From the human T2T-CHM13v2.0 reference genome, Homo sapiens: a DNA stretch of 64,000 nucleotides. The notes beneath the pieces were generated by a model. It saw nothing but the letters and a program-made list of their open reading frames with translations. It did no database searches and was not told the DNA's origin. Below are positions 7,810 through 14,035 of this stretch, piece after piece. The translations under genes and the position numbers were made by a program. Every line of letters begins with the position of its first letter. Position 1 is the stretch's first letter. Location: the NCBI RefSeq assembly GCF_009914755.1, contig NC_060934.1. One strand, written 5' to 3'.

Positions 7810-8500
7810 ACAGTAGTGGCGCTTCGGCCGCGCCCAGGGCCGCGGTTCGCTCTTCCCCGCGTGCGACCAGGCTGCCAGCACTGGGGACCTCTGGCGCCCG
7901 CCCGTCCGCAGCCAGCGGGGACAGCGGCCGCTCTGGGGAGGCGGCGGGGCAGGGGCGAGGGGAGGCCCAGCCCGGGGTCCGCCGAGCGTGACCTTCCCCG
8001 GGGCGAACCTCCTATCCCCACCCCTTCCCGGAATCCGTGCAGGGGCACTGGCCACGCCTGCAATCATAGCAAAAATGTCCCAGTGGGGACCATTCAGTAG
8101 CAAGAAATAGCACGGCGCGCCACCCTTACAGTCACTAACTCTTTTGTTCTCCGTGTTTAGGTAGAAACATGACTCAGAGAATCGGGTTCCCGCTCTGCAG
8201 CCTAAGCCAGAGGCGATGGTTTCCGCTTCTGCTTCTCTTGGCAGTGACCTGCCTTGACTTGGTCTGCTGCCTTTTGCAATCTGCTCTTGAAGGAAGGGCC
8301 AGCCTCTCGCATCTTCCTAGGAACAAGTCCGACCACGATCAGGGCTATTGTGAAATTAGCTAAATTAGTCCGTTCTCTCGACTTTTGGACTCTCTCCTCT
8401 GAATGCCTTATAGGTATAGTTTGGCAATCTCGCTCACACCTGGGTGTGAACCTGCGTGTACCCAGCCCGGGAGATATCGGGGTCTGTACAGGATTGGTAC
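7810..8500. promoter_or_regulatory. CpG island / GC-box promoter of the SelO-like locus
   Basis: Abrupt GC- and CpG-rich stretch in AT-rich DNA. GC boxes and four G4 runs at 7935-7962. Directly precedes the first coding exon. Confidence 0.75.
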
Positions 8501-9293
8501 CCCTTATGGGTTAGAGAGACCTTCTTTCCTTAGCTCCAAGGCCAGATCTACGGGTGCTGTTCCGGTGCTGAGAGACAGCGTGTTTCTAACAGAAAATAAG
8601 TGATATAATTAAGGACTCAGCGCATGCACTCAAACACACAGAGCCAGTGAGATAATGGGTAAGCATTAGAGATACAGAAATGCAATTTAGTCCTCAAAAA
8701 ATTCACTCTAATGAGGAAACAGACCAGCAAGTACGTAACTGCAGTTCTCTGATTCATGTATTTTCTTATTCTTCTTGCATTAAAGAATGCGATAGCCTCA
8801 TAGCTGGGTACATTAATTTCATATTTAATCGTGTGGGTTTTTTTATGGAATGAAGACATCATAGACCATGTAAAGACATCTGAGAAAATAAGCCAGTTTG
8901 ATGGTGTTTTTTGCATCTTGAAGAATAGTATGTAAAAATATGCAAAGTGCTTTACAAGCAAAGATTGTTAATAAGTACCTGTAGCTTACCTGGTTTAGAT
9001 TAGGTTTATATGTTAAGAAACATCCAACAGGTATAATTTGCCAAGTAGAGTGTAGCAATAAGCACTCAGATTGTACTTGACAATCCTATGACTAAGACAT
9101 TATCATTTGTCCTTTTTTTATTTTTTAAAGATAAGGAAACACATAGAGGAAATACCATATTGTCAAATAAGTATCACACTCAAGCTCACACAGTTGGCAA
9201 GTATGGCACTACACAATTTTGTCAGGCCATTTTCATATAGAGATTGCTTGGCCACATTAAAACAGAAAATGTTGCTTTTAAAATGATGCTGTA

Positions 9294-9602
9294 GGCCAGG
9301 TGGGGTGGCTCACGCCTGTTATCCCAGCACTTTGGGAGGCCGAGAGGGGTGGATCACTTTAGGTCAGGAGTTCCAGACAAGCCTGGCCAACATGGTGAAA
9401 CCTCTACTAAACCTCTACCAAAAATACAAAAATTAGCTGGGCATGGTGGTGCATGTCTGTATTCCCAGCTATTTGGGAAGCTGAAGCAAGAGAATTGCTT
9501 GAACCCAGGAGGCAGAGGTTGCAGTGAGCCGAGATTGCGCCACTGCACTCTAGTCTAGGTGACAAAACGAGATTCTGTCTTTAATAAATAAATAAATAAA
9601 AA
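9294..9602 (+). mobile_element. AluS
   Basis: Full dimer with (TAAA)n tail. Confidence 0.95.
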
Positions 9603-10062
9603 GGTGCTGTAGTATTGCAAGGCTAAGTAGGGTCAGCAGATGAAGTTCCTCAAGACTTTCAACATTACTGTATAGCTAAACTCTTGAGAAAAAACAGTAA
9701 CCTACCAATTGGACATATGGAATTCACAAGTAGTTCTTTTGACACAACTAGGCCAAGCATGAGTTGAGGAAGTTAAAAACATTATGTGAATTGTGCAGGT
9801 AACTGCTAAAGAACAGACTTCTCTTATGCAGTCTGAAAACAACTTTAGTCTATTTTGCTGCCCTTAGACAAATGAAAAGAGCCAGTACAGATGTATAAAA
9901 ATGGCCTATGTGTAACTGAAAGTGATCAAGGTTGTCGTTTTGATGTTGGAGTGTTAGCTACCCTCGAAGACATTTTCTTGCCGTATTGATGGTAGTATTT
10001 AAAACATAATATCTACAATAGTACCAGGTTTTATAGCCAAAGAAATTGTAAATATAATACCA

Positions 10063-10372
10063 GGCCAGGCACAGTGGGTCATACCTGTAATCCAAGAACC
10101 TTGGGAGACCGAGGTGGGAGGATCGCTTGAGGCCAGGATGTCGAGACCAGCCTAGGCAACATAAGCAAGACCCTGTCTCTACAAAATAAAATTAGCCAGG
10201 TGTGGTGGTGTGTACCTGTAGCCCTAGCTACTCAGGAGGCTGAGGCGGGGAAGGTTGCTTGAGCCCAGAAGTTCGAGAGTTCGAGGCTGCAGTGAGTTGT
10301 GATCGTGCCACTGCAGTCCAGCCTGGATGAAAGAGTGAGGCACTGTCTGTCTCCAAATAAATAAATAAATAA
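10063..10372 (+). mobile_element. AluJ
   Basis: Full dimer; ggatcgcttgaggccagg J-type features. Confidence 0.92.
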
Positions 10373-12984: not shown

Positions 12985-13292
12985 TCTTTCTTTTGTTTGT
13001 TTGTTTGAGACGGAGTCTCGCTGTGTTGCCCAGGCTGGAATGCAGTGGCACGATCTCCACTCACTGCAAGCTCCGCCTCGAGGGTTCACGCCATCCTGCA
13101 GCCTCAGCCTCCGGAGTAGCTGGGACTACAGGCACCTGCCAACACTCCCGGCTAATTTTTTTTTTTGTATTTTTAGTAGAGACTGGGTTTCACCGTGTTA
13201 GCCAGGACGGTCTCGGTCTTCTGACCTCGTGATCTGCCCGCCTAGGCCTTCCAAAGTACTAGGATTAAAAGCGTGAGCCACCGCGCCCGGCC
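12985..13292 (-). mobile_element. AluY-like
   Basis: ctgcaagctccgcctc...ggttcacgccat...caccgtgttagccagga (Y diagnostics). Confidence 0.93.
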
Positions 13293-13320
13293 ATTAAATC
13301 TGCATTCTTAAAAATTATTA

Positions 13321-13515
13321 GGCTGAGCGCAGTAGCTCACTACTGTAATCATAGCATTTTGGGAGGCCGAAGCGGGAGTATCACTTGAGCCCAGGAGTTT
13401 AAGGCTGCAGTGAGCCATGATTGTTTCTCTGCACTCCAGTCTGGGTGACAGAGTGAGCCTGTGTCTCAGAAAATAAACAACTACAACAACAACAACAACA
13501 ACAAAAACAACAAAA
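13321..13515 (+). mobile_element. FRAM / Alu monomer with (CAA)n tail
   Basis: Single right-arm-type monomer followed by caacaacaa. Confidence 0.82.
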
Positions 13516-14035
13516 ACTGAAAGATGACGTCGGTTTGTAAATTTGTTTTCCCTGCCTCAGGAAGTTCTAGAAGATATTTTGGACCTTGATTTATCTGTCT
13601 CAGAAACAGACGATTTTATCCAGCTTGTAAGTGGCGAAAAGACAGTGTTTGGATCCATTCCACTGGCTCATCCATATGGGGGCCAGCAGGTAAGAGTAGC
13701 AACAGCACCACTTCCCTTATGCAAATAGAATTATTTGATGGAAATGCTGTCCTACTAAGGAAATTATTGTGCATTAATTTTTAAAATAGTGCATTGGGAG
13801 TTCAGCAAGATGTACCTAAAGGAGTATGTCATCAGATGATGTTTATAGGTTAGCTGATGTGATTTCTTGCTGTGCTAAAGCTAGAGCCTAATTCTTTGAA
13901 TGGAACTGAGAATACTGGGGCAGCATAGATAAAAAATTTCTGTGGATTATTACTAGAGAACTCATTCAGTGCACTTTTGGCAAGACATTTTGGCAAAATG
14001 AAGCAGTACAATGTGTCAGTATAAAAGGACAAATA

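What the first reader, a model, noticed from the sequence alone, without database searches (positions are those of the whole stretch)
8161..13689. Remnant of a second SelO-family AMPylase with a secretory-pathway-type N-terminus
Seen: three exons with canonical splice signals and matching phases. Removing one base joins them into MTQRIGFPLCSLSQRRWFPLLLLLAVTCLDLVCCLLQSALEGRASLSHLPRNKSDHDQGYCEIS-KLVRSLDFWTLSSECLIAMLPVDPVKENFMFLKGKLFSIAFPTPFKSRVPLVAVSKEVLEDILDLDLSVSETDDFIQLVSGEKTVFGSIPLAHPYGGQQ. Established: LPV...PTP...LVAxS...SG...PxAHxYxGHQ(FGxxAGQLGDGR) is the N-terminal signature of SelO/YdiU pseudokinase-fold AMPylases, and canonical SELENOO is mitochondrial. Inference: this is a distinct paralogue, since it is AT-rich and has introns where SELENOO (as I recall) has one long first exon. 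Its start is RR, a ~20-residue hydrophobic run, then a stem with an NKS sequon. That looks like a signal peptide or type II anchor, so the ancestral gene may encode an ER/Golgi-lumenal or secreted AMPylase, in a compartment where FICD is the recognised AMPylase. The ORF track hides this because the pieces are split over four short ORFs.
Basis: partly seen in the sequence, partly recalled or inferred. Interest (0 to 1): 0.88.

Follow-up and report, generated by a model that had tools for sequence, protein, structure and literature searches.

The report
Fragment of the dead SELO2 gene
This is a broken, partial copy (the first three exons) of SELO2, a second SelO-type AMP-transferring enzyme that most mammals and fish still make but humans have lost; the intact relatives carry a secretion-type front end, which points to an unstudied enzyme of the secretory pathway.

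Summary
Window 8169-13689 (+) carries three exons with GT/AG signals and matching phases. The spliced peptide is 70-72% identical to intact ~591-aa 'SelO-like' proteins of other mammals and about 30% identical to human SELENOO. In a tree it nests inside placental SELO2, away from SELENOO.

The paralogue is already in print. Dudkiewicz 2012 named it SELO2 and reported it lost in humans.

- This is not the only remnant. It is a truncated, rearranged ~12-kb duplicate (window ~4906-17163) holding only exons 1-3. A fuller pseudogene lies at chr10:26.689-26.722 Mb (-). Two further partial copies and a chr9 retrocopy exist.
- Every copy examined is disabled.
- The secretion-type N-terminus is conserved in intact orthologues. 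All 46 unique mammalian N-termini keep N52-x-S54 and C61, and teleost orthologues have short classical signal-peptide-like starts. The catalytic residues are also kept.

Localisation was not tested. The locus itself is ordinary. The inferred secretory SelO AMPylase is the interesting lead.

The parts
4906..7817 (+). 5' flank of the duplicated block. It is derived from a mid-gene SELO2 intron (the stretch between the exons for aa 365-410 and aa 503-525 in copy A). An Alu sits at its start (~4906-5196).
   Evidence: Full-length matches occur only at C10:26701144-26704041 (89%), C10:26623028-26625263 (88%) and C10:26647405-26649486 (90%). All other genome hits cover only the first ~290 nt (Alu).
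7819..8168 (+). Ancestral SELO2 promoter region, still CpG-island-like. Position ~7818 is the rearrangement junction, which copy B shares.
   Evidence: homology to copy A starts at window 7819 (= C10:26722649). GC 0.67 and CpG o/e 0.81 over -350..+50 of the ATG.
8169..8413 (+). SELO2 exon 1 (aa 1-82). It encodes Met, an Arg-rich start, a ~20-residue hydrophobic run, the NKS sequon, a conserved Cys and the LDFWTLSS motif. A 2-bp deletion after 8356 breaks it, giving TAA at 8361-8363 in the first frame.
   Evidence: 58% identical to Otolemur aa 1-62 and 71% to aa 65-85. The deletion is shared with copy B and absent from copy A.
8414..12334 (+). Intron 1 (GT...AG), with Alu insertions.
12335..12450 (+). 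SELO2 exon 2 (aa 83-122, LPVDP...PTPFKSRV.LVAVSK). It is 116 nt because of window-specific +2 and -5 indels that scramble about 8 codons. The ancestral length is 119 nt.
   Evidence: in-house SELO2 profile, iE 2.1e-9.
12451..13560 (+). Intron 2, with an Alu at ~12985-13300.
13561..13689 (+). SELO2 exon 3 (aa 123-165, EVLEDILDLDLSVSETDDF...PLAH.YGG.Q). It is an intact 129-nt frame but has window-specific R->P and H->Q changes in the AHRYGGHQ motif.
   Evidence: iE 4.3e-18.
13690..17163 (+). Remnant of intron 3, where the duplicated block ends. No exon 4 or later exon follows.
   Evidence: homology to copy B runs to C10:26637908. From ~17160 a different, pericentromere-type duplicon begins; nothing matching aa 166-591 anywhere in the 64-kb window.
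15420..15482 (+). Cryptic exon inside SELO2 intron 3. A gorilla 'ODAD2-like' gene model (P0002) uses it after SELO2 exon 3.
   Evidence: tblastn, 90% identity over 21 aa.

Best explanation
Window ~4906-17163 is a ~12-kb, rearranged, truncated duplicate of the 5' end of the human SELO2 pseudogene. It holds the promoter CpG island, exons 1-3 and part of intron 3.

SELO2 is the ancient metazoan paralogue of SELENOO. It is a Cys-ending (...VSCSS), non-selenoprotein SelO-type AMPylase that is intact in most mammals and in teleosts, but no intact copy was found in the human assembly.

The fragment cannot encode an enzyme. It stops at aa 165, before the glycine-rich loop and every catalytic residue, and it carries a 2-bp deletion in exon 1 and indels in exon 2. 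Anything it does today would be at the RNA level, by offering a promoter or splice sites to noncoding or chimeric transcripts.

The ancestral product most likely had its catalytic domain in the ER/Golgi lumen or outside the cell. In mammals it would be targeted by an N-terminal signal anchor, in teleosts by a cleavable signal peptide, and it would be N-glycosylated at the conserved sequon. There it would transfer AMP from ATP to protein side chains, as SelO does.

Shown: homology, paralogy, truncation, lesions, the multiple copies, and conservation of the N-terminal features and the catalytic residues. Inferred: localisation, glycosylation and activity.
For: Homology and paralogy:
- Exon 3 finds 152 proteins; 120 are listed and 117 carry PF02696. 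They are named 'protein adenylyltransferase SelO-like / YdiU-like' and are 79-95% identical.
- The spliced peptide is 70-72% identical to placental SELO2, 56% to marsupial, 48% to teleost and 30% to the human SELENOO exon-1 ORF.
- In a FastTree of 62 rows, window + copy A + copy B form one clade (99*) inside placental SELO2 (98*), inside mammals (100*), inside mammals plus teleosts (100*). Human SELENOO sits in a separate 99* clade.

Published: Dudkiewicz 2012 (passages read) defines SELO2, gives its Cxx> end, reports 36% identity to SELO in Bos, and states that it was lost in humans.

Truncation:
- tblastn with Otolemur SELO2 finds only aa 1-165 in the window.
- A 24-sequence SELO2 profile finds only those pieces.

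Secondary duplicate:
- The 5' flank is a mid-gene intron of copy A.
- The junction and the 2-bp deletion are shared with copy B.
- Copy A (C10:26689026-26722301, -) has matches to aa 1-165, 262-410 and 503-591.
- K2P between the four copies is 0.070-0.085 over 2999 columns.

Other copies are also dead: A has ATG->ATA and stops, B has a frameshift, a stop and a damaged exon 3, and D lacks exon 1 and has a deletion in exon 3.

Enzyme features in intact orthologues:
- Pfam SelO, E 1e-120 to 1e-125, in 5 of 5 tested.
- P0081 against P. syringae SelO 6EAC, E 4.9e-109. K197, E220, R267, R274 and D354 align with Lys113, Glu136, Arg176, Arg183 and Asp262 (residue roles from the review PMC8097203, passages read).

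Secretory features:
- 65 of 65 full mammalian N-termini have N-x-S at the same place, and 60 of 65 have a 15-residue window with mean Kyte-Doolittle hydropathy of at least 1.6.
- In 46 unique N-termini, N52, S54 and C61 are 46 of 46 and the middle residue of the sequon takes 9 different residues; further upstream only G42 (44 of 46) and the start Met pass 95%, and columns from aa 62 toward the domain boundary are also conserved. The hydrophobic run is preceded by a median net charge of +3.
- 60 of 68 teleost N-termini have a hydrophobic core within the first 30 aa, and 65 of 68 have a sequon.
Against: - No dedicated signal-peptide, TM or mitochondrial-targeting predictor, and no experiment, was available. 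Hydropathy and motif counts are heuristics.
- The mammalian sequences are related, so 65 of 65 is not 65 independent events.
- The mammalian n-region is long and Arg-rich, with acidic residues absent or rare before aa 40. This also resembles a mitochondrial presequence.
- Dudkiewicz 2012 reports that standard methods detected no TM regions in SELO proteins.
- Which chr10 copy sits at the ancestral position was not checked against synteny in other species. No such genomes were available here.
- The claim that all anthropoids lack an intact gene rests only on the absence of a full-length anthropoid protein among the 120 listed hits. A further 32 hits were not shown.
Confidence: 0.9

Rival explanations
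1. The window holds the primary (orthologous) remnant of SELO2. Its later exons were deleted here, and the other chr10 copies are the derived ones.
For: - The window copy keeps an ATG, the CpG island and an intact 129-nt exon 3.
- Distances between the copies are star-like, so sequence alone does not order them.
Against: - Its 5' flank (4906-7817) is a piece of a mid-gene SELO2 intron joined ~350 bp upstream of the ATG. That junction is also present upstream of copy B but not of copy A.
- It lacks all exons after exon 3, and the homology stops at ~17163, where an unrelated duplicon starts.
- Copy A spans aa 1-591 in order over 33 kb.
Confidence: 0.05
2. The exons are a diverged duplicate of SELENOO (chr22), not a separate ancient paralogue.
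For: Both belong to PF02696 and share the LPxDP...PTP...LVAxS...AHxYxGHQ pattern.
Against: - About 30% identity to the SELENOO exon-1 ORF (E 0.35), against 70-72% to SELO2 orthologues.
- Separate starred clades in the tree.
- Different exon structure.
- A 2012 phylogeny places SELO2 in its own metazoan branch.
Confidence: 0.01
3. The ancestral SELO2 protein was mitochondrial like SELENOO. The N-terminus would be a bipartite presequence or an inner-membrane anchor, not a secretory signal.
For: - The paralogue SELENOO is mitochondrial (review PMC8097203).
- Mammalian SELO2 starts are Arg-rich, with few acidic residues in the first ~40 aa.
Against: - Teleost orthologues have a 5-6-residue n-region followed directly by a hydrophobic core. 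This is the classical signal-peptide layout and not an amphipathic Arg-rich presequence.
- The sequon N52/S54 and C61 are invariant in 46 of 46 unique mammalian N-termini, while the flanking columns hold 6-9 different residues. That pattern is expected for lumenal N-glycosylation.
- Hydropathy of the run: H19 is 2.57 in the window peptide and 1.07 in the SELENOO presequence.
Confidence: 0.2
4. The fragment is still functional in humans, either as a 64-aa single-pass micro-protein (ATG 8169 to TAA 8361) or as the promoter and first exons of a noncoding or chimeric transcript.
For: - A CpG-island-like promoter is retained in all three copies that have exon 1 (o/e 0.75-0.88).
- The 64-codon ORF is open.
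- A gorilla gene model splices exon 3 into an ODAD2-like transcript.
- The window lies inside the ODAD2P1 transcribed pseudogene (hub table).
Against: - No expression data were available.
- The ORF end is created by a deletion shared with a second dead copy.
- The exon sequences differ between copies about as much as the intron does, so there is no sign of coding constraint.
Confidence: 0.05

Closest known systems
SELO2 (Dudkiewicz et al. 2012, PLoS One 7:e32138; annotated in other species as 'protein adenylyltransferase SelO-like' or 'YdiU-like')
   Same: The window peptide is a member of this clade. It has the same first exon, and orthologues end in CSS> as that paper describes for the SELO2 branch.
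   Different: - Here it is a dead, truncated duplicate.
- The paper says SELO2 is lost in humans and 'missing from primates, rodents'. One search finds predicted full-length proteins in lemurs, galago and tarsier, and in squirrels, chinchilla and kangaroo rat.
- In the passages I read, the paper does not describe the human remnants or a secretory N-terminus for SELO2.
SELENOO (human chr22; mitochondrial selenoprotein AMPylase)
   Same: Same Pfam family (PF02696), the same N-terminal motif pattern, and the same [C/U]SS end.
   Different: - About 30% identity in the N-terminal region and 34-63% per exon to Otolemur SELO2.
- Sec versus Cys at the C-terminal position.
- One long first coding exon, where SELO2 has several.
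- A mitochondrial presequence instead of a hydrophobic signal.
Bacterial SelO/YdiU (PDB 6EAC, 6K20, 6III)
   Same: Intact SELO2 aligns end to end with these proteins (E 1e-104 to 5e-109). It keeps the Lys/Glu/Arg/Arg/Asp active-site set and the SCSS end.
   Different: SELO2 has an extra ~85-residue N-terminal leader and stem carrying a hydrophobic run, a sequon and a Cys. The window fragment contains none of the catalytic part.
Fish SELENOO2 / SelO2 of the selenoproteome papers (Mariotti 2012; BMC Genomics 2026)
   Same: Same family, and a confusingly similar name.
   Different: That gene is a Sec-containing fish duplicate of SELENOO, not the Cys-ending SELO2 clade found here. Teleosts also have the SELO2 type.
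FICD (ER-lumenal Fic AMPylase) and secretory-pathway kinases such as FAM20C (recalled)
   Same: If the inference holds, SELO2 would work like these: a nucleotide-using protein-modifying enzyme with a signal anchor and a lumenal catalytic domain.
   Different: The fold is unrelated to FICD. No substrate, localisation or activity data exist for SELO2. This comparison is an analogy, not family membership.
A possible HGNC entry 'selenoprotein O like, pseudogene' on 10p12 (recalled only)
   Same: If it exists, it would be the fuller copy A of the same pseudogene family.
   Different: No call verified it. 'SELENOOLP' had 0 occurrences in the paper library, and the hub's RefSeq table lists no such gene in this window.

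Membership tests
SelO / UPF0061 family (Pfam PF02696) | Significant match to a SelO profile | tested here: met
   - Spliced window peptide against an in-house profile of 40 non-SELO2 SelO proteins: 28.0 bits, E 6e-11; best of 500 shuffles 3.1 bits.
- Intact orthologues against Pfam SelO: E 1e-120 to 1e-125, 5 of 5.
- Against this: single exon peptides gave 0 of 3 Pfam hits, and the whole-genome PF02696 scan did not list the window.
SelO / UPF0061 family (Pfam PF02696) | Active-site residues for flipped-ATP AMP transfer (P. syringae Lys113, Glu136, Arg176, Arg183, Asp262) | tested here: not met
   - The window fragment ends at aa 165 and contains none of them.
- In the intact orthologue P0081 all five are present: K197, E220, R267, R274 and D354. 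I counted these on the alignment, using one constant +1 offset between chain index and published numbering. Residue roles come from PMC8097203.
SelO / UPF0061 family (Pfam PF02696) | C-terminal [C/U]xx> motif | tested here: not met
   - Absent from the window, which has no last exon.
- Present as ...VSCSS in orthologues.
- Present as SC(L/S)S-type relics in last-exon copies at C10:26689026, 26660720 and 26602469.
SELO2 clade (metazoan paralogue of SELENOO) | Groups with SELO2 orthologues and not with SELENOO in a tree | tested here: met
   
- FastTree with 62 rows: 12 named SELO2, 45 of the 148 further listed representatives (at least 450 aa; the first 14, then every fourth), a partial human SELENOO, and 4 human pseudogene composites.
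- Window + A + B: 99*. Placental SELO2: 98*. Mammals: 100*. With teleosts: 100*. SELENOO in a separate 99* clade.
- The window row fills only 20% of the columns.
Unitary (unprocessed) pseudogene | Intron-containing copy with disabling lesions, no intact copy in the genome, and intact orthologues elsewhere | tested here: met
   - Introns with GT/AG signals.
- Lesions in the window, A, B and D copies.
- No undamaged copy among the 40 genome matches (that search used a stricter first look, so weak matches may be missing).
- Intact orthologues exist.
Segmental duplication (usual definition, recalled: at least 1 kb and at least 90% identity) | Long paralogous non-repeat DNA at high identity | tested here: inconclusive
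   - Blocks of 2-6 kb at 84-91% BLAST identity.
- Substitution-only identity is 92-93% over 2999 columns.
- The duplication is real but sits at or below the usual 90% cut-off, so it is old.
Secretory-pathway (signal peptide or type II anchor) protein | N-terminal hydrophobic signal with positive charge before it | tested here: inconclusive
   - Heuristics only. Mammals: median 16-residue uncharged run starting at ~aa 20, preceded by net +3. Teleosts: the run starts at aa 6.
- 60 of 65 mammalian and 60 of 68 teleost N-termini pass the hydropathy thresholds.
- SignalP, DeepTMHMM and TargetP were not available.
Secretory-pathway (signal peptide or type II anchor) protein | Evidence of lumenal exposure (conserved N-glycosylation sequon, conserved Cys) | tested here: met
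   - N52, S54 and C61 are invariant in 46 of 46 unique mammalian N-termini, while the sequon's middle residue takes 9 different residues.
- 65 of 68 teleost N-termini have a sequon.
- This shows conservation only. Glycosylation itself was not tested.

The most novel reading that the evidence does not exclude
SELO2 is a second animal SelO-type AMPylase that works inside the secretory pathway or outside the cell. In mammals it would be signal-anchored, in fish signal-peptide-bearing, and it would be N-glycosylated. It would have gone unnoticed because no intact copy was found in humans, no full-length protein from another anthropoid was listed, and apparently murid rodents lack it too. If so, lumenal or extracellular AMPylation in most vertebrates would not be the business of FICD alone. 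The human fragments, with their retained CpG-island promoters and still-used splice sites, may in addition have been recycled into primate-specific noncoding or chimeric transcripts.
Probability: 0.55. Interest if true: 0.7.

Novelty: new member of a known kind. Interest (0 to 1): 0.4.

Why it matters
The locus itself is one more unannotated pseudogene fragment inside a patchwork of old duplications, which is ordinary.

It matters as a pointer. SELO2 encodes a complete, apparently active SelO-type AMPylase in most mammals and fishes. I found it in only one paper of the searched library, and a 2021 review of metazoan AMPylases that I searched lists only Fic enzymes and mitochondrial SelO.

The conserved leader, sequon and Cys argue that SELO2 acts in the secretory pathway. 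That would add a compartment and a substrate set to SelO biology. Its absence from humans would explain why it has been overlooked, and it bears on how far AMPylation results transfer between species.

The finding also corrects the published statement that primates and rodents as a whole lack the gene.

Tried and rejected
- Pfam on single exon peptides: no SelO hit in 0 of 3. Exon 3 gave only DUF6156 at E 0.13. The peptides are too short, so I used in-house profiles instead.
- PDB phmmer with exon 3 alone: one chance hit, a thymidine phosphorylase at E 0.5.
- Whole-genome PF02696 scan: it did not list the window, but it revealed the other chr10 hits and the chr9 hits.
- Search for exons 4 onward in the window: none, by tblastn at E up to 10 (two hits at E 4-6, judged noise) or by profile at iE below 5.
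- Naming P0122, the sister of vertebrate SELO2: only unnamed transcript-like records came back. The ESM Atlas call for P0139 gave family-level labels only. Taxa of these and of the other unnamed representatives therefore remain unknown. I did not use P0129 or P0139 as SELO2 evidence, because they fall outside the SELO2 clade.
- Literature. 'SELENOOLP', 'SELENOO-like' and the RefSeq product names had no occurrence, and 'SelO-like' / 'selenoprotein O-like' turned up only in one paper on bacterial selenoprotein prediction, so nothing bore on the vertebrate gene; 'SELO2' occurred in three papers, only one of them about this gene; the three LOC gene ids appeared only in the 2012 paper; no listed paper dealt with a secreted SelO. 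A proteomics-style search (selenoprotein O plus secretome, seminal plasma, eggshell and so on) gave nothing usable. The library lacks most subscription journals, and I read no supplements.
- Ordering the four copies by sequence failed. Distances are star-like, and the informative sites conflict with the shared 2-bp deletion: win+D 23, win+A 21, win+B 10. Gene conversion or a rapid burst of duplication could explain this.
- I considered structure prediction and did not run it. It returns no coordinates or topology that would settle localisation.

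
Full report
**What is there**

Between window 8169 and 13689 on the + strand lie three exons.
- Exon 1 starts with ATG at 8169 and ends at 8413, followed by GT.
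- Exon 2 is 12335-12450 (116 nt), flanked by AG and GT.
- Exon 3 is 13561-13689 (129 nt), flanked by AG and GT.
- One base carried over from exon 1 plus two from exon 2 make an Ala codon. Exons 2 and 3 join in phase 0.
- Exon 1 changes frame after 8356. Read through with X at that point, the spliced product is 163 residues without a stop.

**Is it more than chance?**

Single exon peptides are too short for Pfam: 0 of 3 gave a SelO hit. Exon 3 alone gave only a chance PDB match.

The joined peptide is clear.
- Against a profile I built from 40 SelO-family proteins that are not SELO2, it scores 28.0 bits (E 6e-11). The best of 500 shuffles scores 3.1 bits.
- Against a profile of 24 SELO2 orthologues it scores 168.8 bits.
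- Exon 3 alone retrieves 152 proteins from the large protein database. Of the 120 listed, 117 carry PF02696, mostly ~591-aa 'protein adenylyltransferase SelO-like' or 'YdiU-like' predictions.
- These come from carnivores, bats, ungulates, elephants, xenarthrans, marsupials, rabbit, several rodents, tree shrew, lemurs, galago, tarsier and two reptiles, at 79-95% identity.

**Which gene?**

- The peptide is 70-72% identical over 165 residues to horse, cat, galago and mouse-lemur proteins, 56% to a marsupial and 48% to a mackerel. It is only about 30% identical (E 0.35) to the first-exon ORF of human SELENOO.
- In a 62-row FastTree, the window copy and two other human chr10 copies form a clade (99*) inside placental SelO-like proteins (98*), inside mammals (100*), joined by teleosts (100*). 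Human SELENOO sits in a different 99* clade. The window row fills only 20% of the columns, but the fuller copy A places it.
- SELENOO covers the homologous region in one open first exon. Here it is split over exons 2-4.
- This paralogue is in print. In the passages I read, Dudkiewicz et al. 2012 named it SELO2, an ancient metazoan duplicate that ends in Cxx> and is not a selenoprotein. They report it present in chicken, dog, horse and cow, 36% identical to SELO in Bos, and 'lost' in humans.
- It should not be confused with the Sec-containing fish SELENOO2 of the selenoproteome papers.
- Searches for SELO2, SelO-like, SELENOOLP, the RefSeq product names and the LOC ids found no other paper that deals with it.

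**The window copy is a truncated, secondary duplicate**

- With galago SELO2 as query, the 64-kb window matches only aa 1-165. Nothing matches aa 166-591 by tblastn or by profile.
- The human genome holds a fuller unprocessed pseudogene, copy A, at C10:26689026-26722301 (-). It has pieces for aa 1-165, 262-410 and 503-591.
- Copy B lies at about C10:26602469-26647056 (-).
- Copy D, a partial copy, lies at C10:26982672-26987186 (+) and has no exon 1.
- There are stray last exons, and an intronless retrocopy on chr9.
- The window's block runs from about 4906 to 17163. Its first 2.9 kb is homologous to a mid-gene intron of copies A and B, and it is joined at about 7818 to the sequence 350 bp upstream of the ATG.
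- The same junction lies upstream of copy B but not of copy A. Outside the SELO2 copies this stretch matches only through its Alu.
- Beyond 17163 a different duplicon begins, one found near many centromeres.
- K2P distances among the four copies are 0.070-0.085 over 2999 shared columns and are star-like. With recalled primate rates of 1.0-1.5e-9 per site per year, that is roughly 25-40 million years. This date is an inference.

**How it is broken**

- Window, exon 1: a 2-bp deletion, shared with copy B, gives TAA at 8361.
- Window, exon 2: +2 and -5 indels scramble about eight codons. The ancestral exon is therefore 119 nt, not 116.
- Window, exon 3: an intact frame, but AHRYGGHQ has become AHPYGGQQ.
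- Copy A: lost its ATG and has stops in exons 1 and 2 and in the DYG exon.
- Copy B: has the frameshift, a stop, and a damaged exon 3.
- Copy D: lacks exon 1 and has a deletion in exon 3.
- No undamaged copy appeared among the 40 genome matches (which used a stricter first look).
- No full-length anthropoid protein is among the 120 listed hits. Only a 77-aa ORF and a gorilla chimeric model appear, while lemurs, galago and tarsier have full models. This suggests loss on the anthropoid lineage, but 32 hits were not shown, so the evidence is weak.

**What the intact gene looks like**

- Five of five orthologues tested match Pfam SelO at E 1e-120 to 1e-125.
- Galago SELO2 aligns with P. syringae SelO (6EAC) at E 4.9e-109, from aa 97 to the shared SCSS end.
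- By my count on that alignment, with one constant offset, K197, E220, R267, R274 and D354 correspond to Lys113, Glu136, Arg176, Arg183 and Asp262. A review describes these as holding the flipped ATP and the DFG Asp.
- The enzyme is therefore predicted to be an active AMPylase. That is an inference.
- The window fragment ends before all of these residues.

**The N-terminus**

- All 65 mammalian proteins with a full leader have N-x-S at the same place, and 60 of 65 have a strongly hydrophobic 15-residue window.
- Among 46 unique leaders, N52, S54 and C61 are invariant while the columns around them are not. The sequon's middle residue takes nine different residues and the flanking columns hold 6-9.
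- The hydrophobic run (median 16 residues, starting near aa 20) follows a net +3 charge. This is the layout of a signal anchor with the C-terminal domain in the lumen.
- Teleost orthologues, named, begin with a 5-6-residue n-region and a hydrophobic core, like a cleavable signal peptide (60 of 68). They also carry Cys residues and a sequon (65 of 68).
- The SELENOO presequence is much less hydrophobic: H19 is 1.07, against 2.57 for window exon 1.
- These features fit a lumenal or secreted enzyme better than a mitochondrial one. However, they are heuristics on related sequences. [quoted passage not shown]
- I found no paper proposing a secretory SelO. The library lacks most subscription journals.

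**Verdict**

- The gene and its loss in humans are already known. The locus is an ordinary, unannotated pseudogene fragment.
- It is one of several copies rather than the sole remnant.
- The worthwhile lead is the conserved secretory-type leader on an apparently active, essentially unstudied AMPylase of which no intact copy was found in the human assembly.

Noticed in passing
G000:C9:111200671-111202571 (-) (loci L011, L026): An intronless (processed) SELO2 retrocopy. It is 54% identical to galago SELO2 over 478 positions, has 14 stops, and sits on a long branch inside placental SELO2.
   Followed up: partly
window 7819-8218; also C10:26722252-26722651 and C10:26647007-26647406: All three copies that keep exon 1 also keep a CpG-island-like promoter (GC 0.65-0.67, CpG o/e 0.75-0.88) despite ~7-8% divergence. 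This hints that they stay unmethylated in the germ line and may still act as promoters.
   Followed up: partly
window 13558-13692 and 15420-15482: A gorilla 'outer dynein arm-docking complex subunit 2-like' gene model (P0002) splices ODAD2-like exons to SELO2 exon 3 and then to a cryptic exon in SELO2 intron 3. The dead exon's splice sites are therefore used in a chimeric model.
   Followed up: partly
window ~17160-19500: Right after the SELO2 block comes a different duplicon, with 86-92% copies near many centromeres (C2, C9, C13, C14, C18, C21, C22, and C10 at 37 and 46 Mb).
   Followed up: no
C10:26689026-26722301 and C10:26602469-26647056: Copies A and B both lack any detectable exon for aa 207-261 and aa 411-502, and A also lacks aa 166-206. 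The chr9 retrocopy still covers those parts. The loss may predate the A/B duplication.
   Followed up: partly
proteins P0129, P0139 (representatives): SelO-family proteins outside the SELO2 clade also start with signal-peptide-like sequences. P0139 adds a Cys-rich module before the SelO domain. Secreted SelO enzymes may have arisen more than once. The taxa are unknown.
   Followed up: partly
proteins P0079, P0081, P0086, P0097, P0100-P0104, P0108: Full-length SELO2 models exist in strepsirrhine primates, tarsier and several non-murid rodents. This contradicts the published 'missing from primates, rodents'. No murid appears among the 120 listed hits.
   Followed up: no
SELO2 orthologues, aa 339-345: In every SELO2 protein printed that covers this segment, the catalytic-loop motif reads HGVCNTDN, with a Cys where the bacterial SelO chains and P0135, a protein of the SELENOO-type clade, have Met or Leu.
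   Followed up: no
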